Shown here: positions 1 through 4,186 of the stretch, piece by piece | Numbering within the stretch: position 1 is the stretch's first letter | How the letters are laid out: every line of letters begins with the position of its first letter | Assembly (NCBI GenBank): GCA_038128265.1 | Contig: JAYPJE010000053.1 | Location: 1-25,570 of the forward strand | Direction of reading: 5' to 3' | From: Gemmatimonadota bacterium | GTDB taxonomy: Bacteria > Latescibacterota > UBA2968 > UBA8231 | Length of the DNA stretch: 25,570 nucleotides | Position numbers and translations under genes: made by a program | The notes under the pieces: generated by a model | Database searches by the model: none | What the model was told of the DNA's origin: nothing | The model's input: the letters and a program-made list of their open reading frames with translations, nothing else

Positions 1-178
1 CTGTGATTTTCACTTCCTCCAGGAAGCGCTGATCAGCCCCTCACGGAAATACGTAATCGCCAATCCGCCCCTCGTTGACGGCGCGTGCCTTATCGGTGAT
101 GCGCGCCAACCAGGGAATATCACCAATGACCATGCCGCGCGCGCGCGGCTTGAAATCGAGAACGTCCCAATCGCTCAT
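1..178 (-). CDS. DUF5069-like small protein, probable selenoprotein (in-frame TGA at codon 46); 3' end runs off the window
   Basis: Hand translation from ATG 178 (AGGAG at 194-190): MSDWDVLDFKPRARGMVIGDIPWLARITDKARAVNEGRIGDYVFP-[TGA 43..41]-GADQRFLEEVKIT. This resembles the recalled DUF5069 pattern PR...L.RMIDKARA...G.LGEY.Y.CP.DQ.FL.F. Similarity continues past the TGA (DQRFLE) and the frame stays open to the edge. Confidence 0.75.
4..35 (-). promoter_or_regulatory. Putative bacterial SECIS element
   Basis: The mRNA after UGA reads GGGGC UGAU CAG CGCUUCC UGGA GGAAGUG AAA AUCA. It folds into a lower stem UGAU/AUCA, a 3x3 internal loop, a 7-bp upper stem (one G-U) and a UGGA apical loop. The loop begins 19 nt after the UGA and has G at position 2. 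Confidence 0.7.
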
Positions 179-200
179 AATTGCCTGTGCTCCTCGTGCA

Positions 201-1232
201 TTAATTCAGTGTGAAGAGAGCGCGCACGCGTCGAATATCTCCATCATCGCTCAACGGTTCGCCCAGCGCACGCGCCATAGCCTGCAGCCGTTCGCGCGGG
301 TTCTTCCAGGCGCGTAGCAGCGCGTCATTGGACGCCTCCAGCGGATGCTCAAGCGCACCGCACAGAGCCGCCGCCGCGTTGAGCTGGAAGACAATCTGAT
401 GCCCTTCCAGCGCGCGCACGACGCACGGATCGCCGGCCAACTGACCATAGGAGCAGGCCGTGCGCGCATCCAGTATAGAGCGCATACCGCCGTTGCAGCG
501 CCCGCCGCCCATACTGGTAGTATACTGCACGATGCGGCGTTCCGTCCAGTCCCAGCTCAATTTGGAAAACTCGATAAAAAACGCCGCGCCTGCCGGCGAT
601 ATGACGACGTTGCGCGCGTTGTAATCGCTGGAGCCCAACACGGGCGGGCGCCGCGCCAGTTCGGCGCAGAGTGCGCCAATCAAATCGAGGGCCGCTCTGC
701 TCAACGGCGGGCGCTGCAGATGACGCTGCAGTGCCTCGGCTCCCCAAAGCGCCCGCTCGCTGGCCCACTGCCAAGCGGCGAGCAAATCCGGCCGGCTGCC
801 GCCCGGCGCAACGCGCTGCGACCACCCCTTATCGCGCTTGAGCGCACCATCAATAGCCAATGCGTTGCGCAGTGCAGCACGCGCCAACTCAGCGTGGTTG
901 CCGCTCTGCTCCTGCACCAGATCGTCTAGCGTAGTGCCCCCCACCCATTCGTAGAAAGCGATACAGGCCGTCTGATCGAGCGCCACCATGGCCGGCACGC
1001 GGCAGCCGGCTTCGACCAGTGCGCGCAGCACGTCGCGCTCGACCTCCAATACGTCGTATGCTCTGCCGCGCGTGAGGGGTGCAAAAATGTGGTATTTAGC
1101 AACATACTTTTTGCCGTCGACGCACAGGCACCACACGCCCGATCCCATCTTTTCAATGTGCCCAACGGGGCCACCCAGCAATTCGGGGACGCGATGCCTC
1201 AGATAGGCATCCACCTCCCCATAGGCGTCCAC
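201..1232 (-). CDS. APH/choline-kinase-like (protein-kinase fold) phosphotransferase with atypical motifs
   Basis: Shows a Gly-loop-like MGSGVW, YVAKY Lys, helix-C-like Glu (EVERDVL), a hinge FYEWVGG and a catalytic-loop-like SSDYNARNV. FIEFS sits in place of the usual IDF/IDW. The GTG start overlaps the upstream TAG. Confidence 0.6.
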   Translation of the reverse strand: MDAYGEVDAYLRHRVPELLGGPVGHIEKMGSGVWCLCVDGKKYVAKYHIFAPLTRGRAYDVLEVERDVLRALVEAGCRVPAMVALDQTACIAFYEWVGGTTLDDLVQEQSGNHAELARAALRNALAIDGALKRDKGWSQRVAPGGSRPDLLAAWQWASERALWGAEALQRHLQRPPLSRAALDLIGALCAELARRPPVLGSSDYNARNVVISPAGAAFFIEFSKLSWDWTERRIVQYTTSMGGGRCNGGMRSILDARTACSYGQLAGDPCVVRALEGHQIVFQLNAAAALCGALEHPLEASNDALLRAWKNPRERLQAMARALGEPLSDDGDIRRVRALFTLN

Positions 1233-1612
1233 TAGGCGTCCTCGGCCTCAAAGACAATGACCTGTGCAACGAGTTTGCCCGCCTGATTATTGCGCTCGGG
1301 ATGCTCGTTCATCGCAAAGAAAATAACGCCTTCCTCTCTGCAGATAAAATCGCATCGCGCACCGATGGCAAAGGCTTCGCCATTGCCTATGCGCGCGATG
1401 AGTGCACCGACGTTCGCACCCGGCATGCGATAGCCCTCACCGGCGGGAAAGCGATAGAGTCCATCCGCGCCGCACCAGGCAATTTGGTCGCGCATGTCGG
1501 GCGACCACGTTTCTTCGGCATCGACTACGATCCGCTGCCCTTGCTTCACGCGGATCAGCGAGTCCTGCCATTGCGGACTCGGGCGTATTGTGCGCATAAT
1601 AGTGACGGCCAT
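1232..1612 (-). CDS. PA-IL/LecA-like beta-sandwich protein, 126 aa, no signal peptide
   Basis: The real start is ATG 1612, with AGGAG 5 nt upstream. WQDSLIRVKQGQRI, WS, GALIARIG..F.IG, G.IFFAMNE and NQAGKL follow the PA-IL-like pattern. The upstream part of track ORF 1232..2344 is an antisense shadow of the M42 gene. Confidence 0.6.
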   Translation of the reverse strand: MAVTIMRTIRPSPQWQDSLIRVKQGQRIVVDAEETWSPDMRDQIAWCGADGLYRFPAGEGYRMPGANVGALIARIGNGEAFAIGARCDFICREEGVIFFAMNEHPERNNQAGKLVAQVIVFEAEDA

Positions 1613-1661
1613 ACAATCTCCTAAGTGTACACGCGTTGTGCTGCGATCGCAGGGACAGTGA

Positions 1662-1690: not shown

Positions 1691-1745
1691 CAAATGCGTG
1701 AACGCTCCGTCCCATCTGCTCCGTGCGCAACGAGGTAAAATGCCG

Positions 1746-2822
1746 ATGAACACATTGGAAACAGACGTAGAGCTGCTGCGCGCCCTGCTGCACATTCCCT
1801 GTCCTTCGGGACGCGAAGAGCGCATGGCCGATTTTATCTGCGCATATATCGACCAGATCGGATTTACCCCCCACAGGGACGCACAGGGCAATGCGTGGAC
1901 CCTCGTGCCGGGACGCGATGCCGAAGCAGGCCCCGTCGCCCTAGCCAGCCATATGGACGAGATTGCCATGGTCGTGCACGCCATCGAAGCCGACGGCACG
2001 CTGCGCGTGCAGCGCAGCGGCGGGCTGCACCCCTGGAAGCTGGGCGAATGCCCCGTCGTACTGGTAGGCGACGGCGACAGCTTGGTCCCGGCCCACCTCA
2101 GCTTTGGGTCCGGCCACACCAACGACCCCGACGATCCCATCGCCCAATTTGCCAGCGGCGCGCGCGGCCTGCAGTGGTCGCACTGCCATCTAATCACCGG
2201 CCTAACGCCCGAACAGCTGCGCGCGCGCGGCGTGCGCGTGGGCACCTGCGCCGTGCCCGACAGCGCGGTGCGCGGACCCCACTTGCTCGGCCCGGCAGAA
2301 GACCCGCTGGTATCAGCGTGGATTCTCGACAATCGCGGCGGCACGCTAACGCTACTGCGCCTGCTCGAAAAAATACAGCGCAGCGGCCTGCAGCCCGCGC
2401 GTCCCCTCTACCTGTGCTTTATGGTGCAAGAAGAAGGCGGCCTGCTCGGCGCCAAGGGTTGGGCACACCGCAATGCGGTTGAAACCTTTATCGCCGTCGA
2501 TTCCTCGCCCATTCCGCGCGGCGCTCAACTGGCGCTGGACGGCCGTCCTGCCACCTGGTCCAAAGACTCGGGCGCCCACTTTCACCAGGGCCTAATCGGC
2601 GAGCTGGCCAGCGCTACCGAACGGGCTGGGAGCGAACTCCAATACGCCGTCTACGGCGCCGCCGCCTCGGACGCAACCGGCGTGCTGCAGGCCGGCCTGG
2701 CGCCGCGCGCGGCCACCATCGGCTATCCGCGCGCCAACTCGCACGGCTACGAAGTGTGCCGCCTGAGCGTATTCGGCCACCTCGTCAACGCGCTCTTTGC
2801 CTACGTAGAAGACCTGGCGTGA
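1746..2822 (+). CDS. M42 family dinuclear metallo-aminopeptidase
   Basis: Motifs PSGREE, SHMDE, LDNRGG, QEEGG, AVDS and NSHGYE give a full H/D/EE/D/H ligand set. GAGGT at 1732-1736 favours ATG 1746 (or 1740). Confidence 0.85.
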   Translation: MNTLETDVELLRALLHIPCPSGREERMADFICAYIDQIGFTPHRDAQGNAWTLVPGRDAEAGPVALASHMDEIAMVVHAIEADGTLRVQRSGGLHPWKLGECPVVLVGDGDSLVPAHLSFGSGHTNDPDDPIAQFASGARGLQWSHCHLITGLTPEQLRARGVRVGTCAVPDSAVRGPHLLGPAEDPLVSAWILDNRGGTLTLLRLLEKIQRSGLQPARPLYLCFMVQEEGGLLGAKGWAHRNAVETFIAVDSSPIPRGAQLALDGRPATWSKDSGAHFHQGLIGELASATERAGSELQYAVYGAAASDATGVLQAGLAPRAATIGYPRANSHGYEVCRLSVFGHLVNALFAYVEDLA

Positions 2823-4186
2823 CCAGCGGCGCGCTCGACCAGCGGCGCATTGCCCTACTCGGATTCGGCGTAGAAAATCGCGCGCTGGGCCACTTTCTCC
2901 TCGCGCGCGATATCCCTTTCTCCGTGTGCGATGCGCACCCACCGACCGAGGATGTGCTGGCCGAGTGGCCACAGGTGCAGCGCTGGCACACCGGTCCCTC
3001 CTACCTAGACGAGCTATCGCACTACGACCTGCTCTTCCGCACGCCCGGCCTCAGCGCGCTGCATCCGCGCTTGCTCCAGGCCACGGCGCGCGGAGCCGAC
3101 GTCTCGAGTCAGATGCAGCTATTCTTCTCCTGCTGTCCCAGCACCCTGCTCGGCGTGACGGGCACTAAGGGCAAGGGCACGACGACGACGCTCCTGGCCG
3201 CGCTGCTCGGTGCAGACCCGGCGCAGCGCGTTTTCGTCGGCGGCAATATCGGTCAACCGCCTATCGCGTTCCTAGACCAACTGGGACAGGGCGACCTGGT
3301 GCTGCTCGAGCTGTCCAGTTTTCAGCTGCAGGATCTGACGCAGAGCCCACACCTAGCGCTAGTGCTTTCGGTGACGCAGGACCACCTCGACTACCACGCC
3401 CACCGCGATGAGTACGTCGATGCCAAGCGCAATATCGCCCGCTACCAGCAGCCGACCGACCTGCTGATCACGCACGCCGACTGCCCCACCGCGCGCACTT
3501 TCGCCGACTGTTCCCCCGCGCGCCACTGGTCTTTTAGCAGCCGCGCGCCCGTAGAGAGCGGCGCGTGGATTGCAGACGACCGCCTGTGCGTGCGCCTGCC
3601 CGGCCAGCCGAGCGTCGAAATCTGCCACACCCATGCGCTGCGCCTGCCCGGTCGGCACAACGCGGAAAACGCCTGCGCGGCCATCGCTGCAGCTGCAGCC
3701 CTCGGCGTGGAACCGGCGTCCATGCAGGAGCCGTTAGCCGATTTTCGCGGCCTTCCGCACCGCCTCGAATACCTAGGTGAGCGAGCGGGTATCGCCTACT
3801 ATAACGACTCGCTAGGGACTACGCCCGACGCGGCCATCGCCGCGCTGCGCGCGCTCGAACAACCGGTCGCACTCATAGCCGGCGGCGCCGGCAAGGGCGC
3901 CGACTTTGCCGAGTTGGGTCGAGCGATAGCCGCAGCCGCTATGCGGGGCGTACTGTTGTTGGGAGAAGAGGCCCTGCGCCTAGAAAGGGCACTCGCCGCA
4001 GCCGGCTATGCGGGGCCGCTGCGGCACTGCACCAGCATGGAAGAAGCAGTGGAATGGGCGCGTATGTGGACGCGCGACGGCGATGCCGTGCTGCTGTCAC
4101 CCGCCTGCGCCAGCTTTGATATGTTCGTCGACTACCGCCAACGCGGCGAGTGCTTTAGAGAGGCCTGCGGCTTTGCCACTTCCTAG
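2819..4186 (+). CDS. murD: UDP-N-acetylmuramoyl-L-alanine--D-glutamate ligase
   Basis: Motifs GVTGTKGKGTTT, GGNIG, ELSSFQL, DHLDYH, GLPHRLE, NDSLGTT, GGAGKG and LLSPACASFDMF..Y..RG. The GTG start overlaps the M42 stop (GTGA). Confidence 0.93.
   Translation: MTSGALDQRRIALLGFGVENRALGHFLLARDIPFSVCDAHPPTEDVLAEWPQVQRWHTGPSYLDELSHYDLLFRTPGLSALHPRLLQATARGADVSSQMQLFFSCCPSTLLGVTGTKGKGTTTTLLAALLGADPAQRVFVGGNIGQPPIAFLDQLGQGDLVLLELSSFQLQDLTQSPHLALVLSVTQDHLDYHAHRDEYVDAKRNIARYQQPTDLLITHADCPTARTFADCSPARHWSFSSRAPVESGAWIADDRLCVRLPGQPSVEICHTHALRLPGRHNAENACAAIAAAAALGVEPASMQEPLADFRGLPHRLEYLGERAGIAYYNDSLGTTPDAAIAALRALEQPVALIAGGAGKGADFAELGRAIAAAAMRGVLLLGEEALRLERALAAAGYAGPLRHCTSMEEAVEWARMWTRDGDAVLLSPACASFDMFVDYRQRGECFREACGFATS

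What the first reader, a model, noticed from the sequence alone, without database searches (positions are those of the whole stretch)
1..178. Hidden candidate selenoprotein: DUF5069-like gene with in-frame UGA at the conserved Cys position
Seen: a minus-strand gene with an SD that is missing from the ORF track, because a TGA (43..41) cuts it at 45 aa. The frame continues as ...GDYVFP-TGA-GADQRFLEEV to the window edge. Knowledge (recalled): DUF5069 proteins read roughly RMIDKARA...GEY.Y.CP.DQ.FL, so the TGA falls on the family's Cys and similarity persists downstream, the classic Sec/Cys pair signature. Nine other genes here use TGA as a true stop, so this is not genome-wide recoding. Inference: a selenocysteine form of an uncharacterised family, which would mark that residue as catalytic or redox-active. 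I do not know of DUF5069 as an established selenoprotein family but cannot check.
Basis: partly seen in the sequence, partly recalled or inferred. Interest (0 to 1): 0.9.

Follow-up and report, generated by a model that had tools for sequence, protein, structure and literature searches.

The report
Unlisted DUF5069 selenoprotein gene
A small gene that seems to stop early at a TGA codon almost certainly reads that codon as selenocysteine, which adds a protein family of unknown function to the bacterial selenoproteins and marks its likely active residue.

Summary
A minus-strand ORF (window 178..44) meets TGA at 43..41, and the frame runs on to the contig edge. It continues on contig C21 of the same genome, which overlaps by 24 nt and is co-linear with the nearest relative. 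The result is an 89-codon gene.

Read through, the gene passes the Pfam DUF5069 threshold, and the TGA falls on the family's conserved Cys (Y-x-[YF]-P-C-P-x-D).

Of the 80 best related species genomes (Latescibacterota, Gemmatimonadota, Poribacteria), 65 carry TGA at this codon and 15 carry TGC/TGT. All 65 keep the downstream frame open, and it is under purifying selection.

A 7-bp hairpin with a UGGA loop starts 12 nt after the UGA. It is kept only in the TGA forms, with compensatory changes and frozen synonymous sites.

The genome has selA, selB and a Sec-type selD. No tRNA-Sec was found in this 84%-complete assembly. Contigs from three other studies show the same TGA.

The family is absent from a May 2026 table of 119 selenoprotein families and from NCBIfam.

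Biochemical function is unknown; a redox role is inferred. This scan had already reached the same reading on at least eight other genomes.

The parts
190..195 (-). Shine-Dalgarno-like GAGGAG, 11 nt before the ATG
   Evidence: Read directly. The upstream gene's stop TAA is at 203..201, so the intergenic gap is 22 nt.
44..178 (-). Codons 1-45 of the short DUF5069 gene (ATG 178..176 ... GDYVFP)
   Evidence: dN/dS is 0.13 for this part among 65 TGA-type genes.
41..43 (-). UGA codon 46, read as selenocysteine. It aligns with the family's conserved Cys.
   Evidence: 65 of 80 related loci have TGA here, 10 TGC and 5 TGT.
1..40 (-). Codons 47-59 (GADQRFLEEVKIT) up to the contig edge. The gene continues on G000:C21:27-115, with its stop at C21:116-118, for 89 codons in all.
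   Evidence: and for the join. Own C53 and C21 align back to back on L025 with the same 24-nt overlap.
11..28 (-). SECIS-like hairpin: 5' arm 28..22 (CGCUUCC), loop 21..18 (UGGA), 3' arm 17..11 (GGAAGUG). It starts 12 nt after the UGA.
   Evidence: fold; present in the TGA loci; 95.1% of cells paired; pair 18-31 CG 42 / GC 11; frozen synonymous sites.
201..1232 (-). Upstream neighbour, 343 aa, with a kinase-like (APH-like) fold. It is the conserved partner gene on the same strand.
   Evidence: present upstream on the same strand in 61 of 80 loci; its stop overlaps the DUF5069 start by 4-11 nt in 47 of 61; only weak kinase / APH leads; invariant K, E, D....N.
1235..1615 (-). Second conserved upstream neighbour, 127 aa, with no Pfam family (PA-IL-like lead only)
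   Evidence: 60 of 80 loci; no Pfam; Atlas lead; PA-IL on 17% of one cluster.

Best explanation
This is a real selenoprotein gene. An 89-codon mRNA is translated from the ATG at 178. At codon 46, SelB carrying Sec-tRNA(Sec) is recruited by a hairpin inside the coding sequence: a 7-bp stem with a UGGA loop that begins 12 nt after the UGA. Selenocysteine is inserted instead of terminating. The product is a small, mostly helical protein of the short DUF5069 subfamily, in which Sec replaces the family's one conserved Cys in the motif Y-x-[YF]-P-[U/C]-[P/G/A]-x-D. In the model that residue sits at the N-terminal cap of a helix.

Shown: the Sec/Cys pair, the conserved downstream frame, the hairpin with covariation, and the presence of selA, selB and selD.

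Inferred: that the residue is a nucleophilic or redox-active centre, and that the protein works with the translationally coupled kinase-like neighbour and, in many relatives, with an FNR-like NAD-binding reductase just downstream.
For: - **Sec/Cys pair.** Of 63 close database homologues, 25 stop exactly before this column (24 of 45 aa, 1 of 44 aa) and 37 are 88-95 aa. One has W there, which suggests a gene call that read TGA as Trp. Cys46 is invariant in the 37 full-length forms.
- **Related loci.** Of 80 genome loci, 65 have TGA, 10 TGC and 5 TGT. Every TGA locus printed keeps the frame open for about 39-47 further codons, with conserved ADQRFLEE....
- **Selection on the downstream part.** For codons +12..+38 of the TGA forms, dN/dS is 0.34 (227 pairs). 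Entropy is highest at third codon positions: 1.35, against 0.85 and 0.74 for positions 1 and 2.
- **RNA constraint only in the TGA forms.** Codons +6..+9 are TTC in 63 of 65, CTG in 65 of 65, GAG in 64 of 65 and GAA in 60 of 65, but mixed in the 15 Cys forms. dS in the hairpin zone is 0.62, against 1.13 and 1.15 in the flanks.
- **Hairpin pairing.** 95.1% of cells are paired, against 85.6% in shuffles (0 of 500 shuffles reach it) and 29-69% when the partner is slid. Pair 18-31 is CG in 42 and GC in 11 sequences with none unpaired. Pair 17-32 is GU 23, AU 14, GC 10, UA 2.
- **Machinery.** selD, selA and selB are all over their cut-offs.
- **Internal control.** The genome's own selD has UGA at its known Sec site, followed by a 10-nt spacer, a 7-bp stem and a GGUC loop. 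This is the same architecture.
- **Relatives with the TGA form.** selA is over its cut-off in 5 of 5 and tRNA-Sec in 4 of 5. aragorn calls tRNA-SeC(tca) in two of them.
- **Independent assemblies.** Three of them agree on TGA.
- **Sec/Cys changes.** The tree needs at least 4. One Cys form inside the Sec clade (L061) still holds the hairpin.
Against: - No tRNA-Sec was found in this assembly. The best Rfam score is 43.2 bits against a cut-off of 47, on a tRNA-Ser. aragorn finds 19 tRNAs and none for Sec. The closest relative MAG also falls short, at 45.1 bits. Both are incomplete MAGs.
- The hairpin of this one sequence is not significant alone: -11.9 kcal/mol, z -1.38, and 22 of 200 shuffles fold as well.
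- No Rfam family matches it.
- There is no evidence of expression or of selenium in the protein. The one RNA run laid covers only 181-400, not the gene.
- selA is also present in 5 of 5 Cys-form genomes, so its presence does not discriminate.
- The gene is split over two contigs, and the first two bases of C21 differ from the window.
- The structure model is of modest confidence, with mean pLDDT 69.7, so the 'helix N-cap' argument is weak.
Confidence: 0.9

Rival explanations
1. The UGA mostly terminates. The gene would make a 45-residue peptide, with Sec read-through as a minor or selenium-regulated product, so the full-length protein is conditional.
For: Bacterial Sec insertion competes with release factor 2 (general knowledge, not tested here). 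Gene callers report the 45-aa form in 24 database clusters.
Against: The downstream 43 codons are under purifying selection as strong as in the Cys forms (dN/dS 0.34 against 0.50). The Cys forms make only the full-length protein. The 45-aa part alone lacks the conserved C-P-x-D half of the family motif.
Confidence: 0.05
2. The UGA is read by something other than Sec-tRNA, for example near-cognate Trp or Cys read-through, or a lineage-specific reassignment.
For: No tRNA-Sec was found in this assembly. Two public protein records carry W at the site.
Against: 8 of 20 long ORFs in the window end in TGA. Several TGA-form genes also use TGA as their own final stop. The aligned residue in homologues is Cys, not Trp. 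A conserved hairpin at SECIS distance would have no purpose under this reading. selA, selB and selD are present.
Confidence: 0.03
3. The gene is a pseudogene, or a sequencing or assembly error, at a normal Cys codon.
For: The gene lies at a contig end, and the first two bases of C21 disagree with the window.
Against: The same TGA is present in 65 of 80 species genomes, closed long-read chromosomes among them, and in contigs of three other studies. The frame and protein sequence are conserved downstream.
Confidence: 0.01

Closest known systems
Bacterial selenoprotein genes with an intragenic SECIS read by SelB (prototype E. coli fdhF; this genome's own selD)
   Same: Both have an in-frame UGA at a Cys position of homologues. 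A short stem-loop with G in the apical loop starts 10-12 nt after the UGA, and selA, selB and selD are present. The 11-nt spacing and the GGUC loop of fdhF are recalled, not tested. The own selD shows a 10-nt spacer, a 7-bp stem and a GGUC loop.
   Different: The loop is UGGA, not GGUC. The protein family is different and has no known function. No Rfam model matches.
Cys-type short DUF5069 proteins (Pfam PF16798) and PDB 3omd, an 'uncharacterized protein' of Leptospirillum rubarum
   Same: They share the fold and motif. The profile hits 3omd_A at E 3.7e-11, with YNCPLDQ aligned. Foldseek gives TM 0.70 on the query and 33% identity. The Pfam score is above the cut-off.
   Different: Here Sec stands in place of Cys. 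The protein is 89 aa and covers only profile positions 4-79 of 133, whereas 3omd is 145 aa. No function is known for either.
Computationally predicted single-Sec bacterial families of unknown function (for example hypothetical proteins GOS_B, DG and DF in Table 1 of PMC13188914)
   Same: They are defined by the same kind of evidence: Sec/Cys pairs plus a SECIS-like hairpin. They have one Sec and no CxxU or UxxC motif.
   Different: This is a different family. No NCBIfam model, including those of the listed families, matches this protein or its Cys homologues. DUF5069 / PF16798 is not in the table.

Membership tests
Bacterial selenoprotein gene (SelB/SECIS-decoded UGA) | In-frame UGA aligned with Cys (or Sec) in homologues | tested here: met
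   65 TGA, 10 TGC and 5 TGT in 80 loci. Cys is invariant in 37 of 37 full-length homologues.
Bacterial selenoprotein gene (SelB/SECIS-decoded UGA) | Reading frame and protein sequence conserved downstream of the UGA | tested here: met
   (frames open for about 39-47 codons). (dN/dS 0.34 for codons +12..+38, 227 pairs, 65 sequences; L098 dropped for an N).
Bacterial selenoprotein gene (SelB/SECIS-decoded UGA) | Stem-loop shortly after the UGA with G in the apical loop, conserved with covariation | tested here: met
   (95.1% paired; 3 of 7 pairs changed on both sides; 0 of 500 shuffles reach the score). The distance and loop rules of published SECIS models are recalled, not run.
Bacterial selenoprotein gene (SelB/SECIS-decoded UGA) | selA, selB and selD in the genome | tested here: met
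   all three are over their curated cut-offs.
Bacterial selenoprotein gene (SelB/SECIS-decoded UGA) | tRNA-Sec (selC) in the genome | tested here: inconclusive
   Not found in this 84.49%-complete MAG. Found over the cut-off in 4 of 5 genomes of relatives with the TGA form.
Bacterial selenoprotein gene (SelB/SECIS-decoded UGA) | Selenium physically present in the protein | not testable with these tools
   Needs 75Se labelling or mass spectrometry.
DUF5069 (Pfam PF16798) | Score above Pfam's gathering threshold | tested here: met
   32.6 bits against 27; 28.8 bits against 27.
DUF5069 (Pfam PF16798) | Full-length domain (133 profile positions) | tested here: not met
   the window part covers profile positions 4-50 and the C21 part 49-79 (weak, E 0.076). 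This is a short subfamily that lacks about the last 50 positions. The same genome holds full-length domains on C6.
DUF5069 (Pfam PF16798) | Family motif DK.RA ... G.Y.YPCP.D | tested here: met
Published catalogues of selenoprotein families | Family listed by name, Pfam id or NCBIfam model | tested here: not met
   (no paper holds 'DUF5069' or 'PF16798'). (Table 1 of PMC13188914 read in full). (no NCBIfam model). (supplements).

The most novel reading that the evidence does not exclude
The short DUF5069 protein would be the selenium- or sulfur-based reactive centre of an undescribed conserved module. The module is a PA-IL-like small protein, an APH-like kinase whose stop overlaps the DUF5069 start, the DUF5069 Sec/Cys protein, an FNR-like NAD(P)H reductase and a polyprenyl-phosphate-type GT2 glycosyltransferase. 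In this reading a reductase-recycled selenol takes part in making or modifying a phosphorylated or glycosylated envelope compound in Latescibacterota, Gemmatimonadota and Poribacteria.
Probability: 0.12. Interest if true: 0.75.

Novelty: new member of a known kind. Interest (0 to 1): 0.58.

Why it matters
**Annotation.** Public records cut this gene to a 45-residue 'hypothetical protein' or translate the codon as W. A whole family is therefore misannotated across three little-studied phyla.

**Function.** A Sec/Cys pair is one of the few purely genomic signs that a residue is catalytic or redox-active. It gives DUF5069, which has a solved structure (3omd) but no function, a testable active site.

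**Selenoproteome.** The family adds an entry to the list of 119 families and subfamilies in the May 2026 review. It also supplies a clean SECIS example, in which residue changes flanking F-L-E-E (R to K or M, V to L or H) co-vary to keep an RNA stem.

The decoding mechanism itself is textbook, so the advance is one of inventory and of a lead, not of principle.

Tried and rejected
- **Complex prediction.** The kinase-like neighbour (A4, 40 rows) was folded with the Cys-type DUF5069 protein (A5, 37 rows). The score was 0.01 against a mark of 0.32 and the verdict was 'no answer'. This is no evidence either way.
- **Rfam.** A scan of three relatives' loci and the window end found no SECIS or other relevant family at E up to 10.
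- **NCBIfam.** Nothing for the read-through protein or for five Cys or W homologues.
- **Pfam on the two upstream neighbours.** Nothing, even at E up to 5. The ESM Atlas gave only leads: APH-like for the 343-aa protein, and PA-IL on 17% of one cluster for the 127-aa protein.
- **RNA evidence.** The metatranscriptome run X18 covers only 181-400, so it says nothing on expression of the gene.
- **tRNA-Sec in the own genome.** The Rfam model, aragorn, and blastn with two relatives' tRNA-Sec all found nothing.
- **selA as a discriminator.** It is present in 5 of 5 TGA-form and 5 of 5 Cys-form genomes, so it does not discriminate.
- **BSepDB supplement.** It holds no 'DUF' word at all, so it probably does not list families, and the negative is weak. 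The database website could not be queried.
- **The search of earlier findings.** Searches by place and by sequence returned nothing.
- **Failed scripts.** Two first regular expressions in my scripts were wrong and matched nothing. They were corrected.

Full report
**1. Observation**

On the minus strand an ORF starts at ATG 178..176. It is preceded by GAGGAG at 195..190, and the stop of the upstream gene lies at 203..201. The ORF runs for 45 codons to ...GDYVFP and meets TGA at 43..41. The same frame continues GADQRFLEEVKIT to window position 1.

Window position 1 is the end of contig C53 of a 102-contig genome. That genome is 4.29 Mb, 84.49% complete and 5.15% contaminated. Bases 1-24 of the window are the reverse complement of C21:3-26. 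C21 continues the frame for 30 more codons to a TAG at 116-118.

The join is real. On the closest relative's contig (L025, about 85% DNA identity), own C53 (reverse complement, 23-1700) aligns to L025 1-1678, and own C21 3-1514 aligns to L025 1655-3177. The two pieces therefore sit back to back with the same 24-nt overlap. The gene has 89 codons. The first two bases of C21 differ from the window, which I take to be a contig-end artefact.

**2. Family**

Read through (C in place of U for the programs), the 59 residues in the window score 32.6 bits on Pfam DUF5069 (cut-off 27). The match spans the TGA. The C21 piece weakly extends it to profile position 79 of 133. No NCBIfam model matches.

A profile of 37 full-length close homologues finds 445 proteins at E up to 0.001 in the 50%-identity library. 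Among 170 domains in the best 150, the TGA column holds:

| Residue at the column | Domains |
|---|---|
| Cys | 114 |
| Ser (mostly in tandem-repeat proteins) | 28 |
| Other residues | 13 |
| Domain ends exactly before the column | 15 |

. The only solved relative is PDB 3omd, an uncharacterised protein.

**3. The TGA is conserved, not a lesion**

Of 63 close database proteins, 24 are exactly 45 aa and one is 44 aa, ending just before the column. 37 are 88-95 aa, and one has W at the site. Cys46 is invariant in those 37.

A scan of one genome per species found 191 related stretches and kept the best 80. At the aligned codon 65 have TGA, 10 TGC and 5 TGT. All TGA loci printed keep the frame open for about 39-47 more codons, with recognisably the same protein.

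dN/dS by gene region (one row, L098, dropped for an N):

| Region | TGA forms | Cys forms |
|---|---|---|
| Upstream of the TGA | 0.13 | 0.20 |
| Codons +12..+38 | 0.34 | 0.50 |

By their record titles the carriers are Latescibacterota, Gemmatimonadota and Poribacteria MAGs, many of them closed long-read chromosomes.

Contigs from three runs of three other studies (X2, X6, X7) cover positions 41-43 without any other letter and run on past the window's end. TGA is a normal stop in this window: 8 of 20 long ORFs end in it.

**4. SECIS-like element**

Twelve nucleotides after the UGA lies a 7-bp stem (CGCUUCC / GGAAGUG) with a UGGA loop, at window 28..11. In this one sequence the fold is not significant on its own (z -1.38). 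Across the family it is.

- In 66 TGA sequences (53 distinct), 95.1% of cells pair. Shuffles give 85.6% and 0 of 500 reach the observed value. Sliding the partner gives 29-69%.
- Pair 18-31 is C-G in 42 sequences and G-C in 11, never unpaired.
- Pair 17-32 is G-U, A-U, G-C or U-A.
- The swaps change the encoded residues on both sides of F-L-E-E (R to K or M, V to L or H) while keeping the stem.
- The four central codons are almost frozen in the TGA forms: TTC 63, CTG 65, GAG 64 and GAA 60, each of 65. They vary in the 15 Cys forms.
- Synonymous divergence drops to 0.62 in this zone, against 1.13 and 1.15 beside it. No such drop is seen in the Cys forms.

The genome's own selD gives an internal control. 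Its UGA sits at the known Sec site and is followed by a 10-nt spacer, a 7-bp stem and a GGUC loop. Rfam has no model that matches the element.

**5. Machinery**

selD (itself with an in-frame TGA), selA and selB exceed their curated cut-offs.

tRNA-Sec was not found. The best Rfam hits are tRNA-Ser genes below the cut-off, and aragorn finds only 19 tRNAs in the whole assembly. blastn with relatives' tRNA-Sec also finds nothing. This is the main gap, and I attribute it to the incomplete MAG.

In five genomes with the TGA form, selA is present in 5 of 5 and tRNA-Sec is over the cut-off in 4 of 5. aragorn confirms tRNA-SeC(tca) in two of them. Five Cys-form genomes also have selA, so Sec and Cys forms alternate within Sec-competent lineages.

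A tree of 80 rows (76 columns, poorly resolved) needs at least 4 Sec/Cys changes, 2 of them forced by well-supported branches. One Cys form (L061) inside the Sec clade still holds the hairpin.

**6. What the protein may do**

A model of a Cys homologue (pLDDT 69.7, modest) is a small helical protein. The Cys lies directly before helix 47-55. The protein has a single conserved Cys/Sec and no CxxC-type motif. This suggests a nucleophilic or redox centre, by inference only.

Gene context is conserved:

- A 127-aa protein and a 343-aa kinase-like protein lie upstream on the same strand in 60 and 61 of 80 loci.
- The kinase-like gene's stop overlaps the DUF5069 start by 4-11 nt in 47 of those 61.
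- That protein keeps invariant K, E and D....N residues. It has only weak Kdo-kinase, Bud32 and APH leads.
- An FNR-like NAD-binding oxidoreductase (PF00175) follows directly in 41 of 80 loci, though not in this genome.
- A GT2 polyprenyl-phosphate-type glycosyltransferase lies downstream in 41 of 80 loci, including here on C21.
- Three Poribacteria loci have a glutaredoxin-thioredoxin-reductase fusion upstream.

A complex prediction of the kinase-like protein with DUF5069 gave no verdict.

**7. Is it known?**

- No paper in the library contains 'DUF5069' or 'PF16798'.
- I read the whole of Table 1 of the May 2026 review PMC13188914, which lists 119 families and subfamilies with domain ids. 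It does not list this family.
- The deep-Sep paper's four supplementary files (PMC12013277) hold neither the name nor the family's motifs.
- The four supplementary files held for the GOS 2008 paper (PMC2398784) hold none of the motifs. I saw passages of its main text.
- For BSepDB (PMC13326102) I read the abstract and one section. Its held supplement has no family names, so that negative is weak.
- I did not see Deng et al. 2026 (cited in the review), Haft and Tolstoy 2025, or the BSepDB website.
- GenBank names a truncated form 'hypothetical protein' and the Cys forms 'DUF5069 domain-containing protein'.
- Notes of this same scan report the same reading on at least eight other genomes. They are AI notes, not independent evidence, and I saw them only after my own tests.

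**8. Verdict**

This is a real selenoprotein gene (confidence about 0.9) of a family missing from the catalogues I could check. It is a new member of a known kind: the decoding is textbook, and the biochemical function is open.

Noticed in passing
G000:C6:50160-51419 (-), loci L107-L109: The same genome encodes three tandem full-length DUF5069 domains in one 562-aa open frame (72.8-77.2 bits each). Similar three-domain proteins of 432-441 aa are in the representative library. In them the Cys column is usually Ser or Gly in two of the three repeats.
   Followed up: partly
G000:C18:70299-71222 (-), locus L003: The genome's selD is itself a selenoprotein. Its UGA sits in ...TCG-U-AAK... and is followed by a 10-nt spacer, a 7-bp stem and a GGUC tetraloop (-21 kcal/mol for the 55 nt).
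   Followed up: yes
window 201-1232 (-) and 1235-1615 (-): Two conserved upstream genes have no Pfam family. One is a 343-aa kinase-like protein with invariant K, E and D....N. The other is a 127-aa protein with only a PA-IL-like lead. With the DUF5069 gene they form a conserved same-strand block in about 60 of 80 related loci.
   Followed up: partly
L032:1742-2653 and 40 other loci: An FNR-like NAD-binding oxidoreductase (PF00175) lies directly after the DUF5069 gene in 41 of 80 loci (31 of 65 Sec forms, 10 of 15 Cys forms). No homologue was found anywhere in the window's own assembly.
   Followed up: partly
L094:231-1466, also L095 and L098: A glutaredoxin / thioredoxin-reductase-type fusion protein lies just upstream of the Sec-type gene in three Poribacteria loci. 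A chorismate mutase-prephenate dehydratase follows the gene in nine Poribacteria loci.
   Followed up: partly
window 1-24 and G000:C21:1-26: The assembly breaks inside the gene, just after the SECIS hairpin. Contigs C53 and C21 overlap by 24 nt, and the first two bases of C21 disagree with the window.
   Followed up: yes
L061:1636-1678: A Cys-type (TGT) gene nested in the Sec clade still carries a SECIS-like hairpin (TTCCTACAGGAA core). This fits a recent Sec-to-Cys replacement.
   Followed up: partly
proteins P0064 and P0065: Public protein collections hold full-length versions of Sec-type genes with W at the site (YPWGAD...). This suggests gene callers that read TGA as Trp. Most other records are cut to 45 aa.
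   Followed up: no
window 1698-4186 (+): An M42-family peptidase gene and a MurD-like Mur ligase gene lie on the opposite strand next to the cluster. These are ordinary annotations.
   Followed up: no
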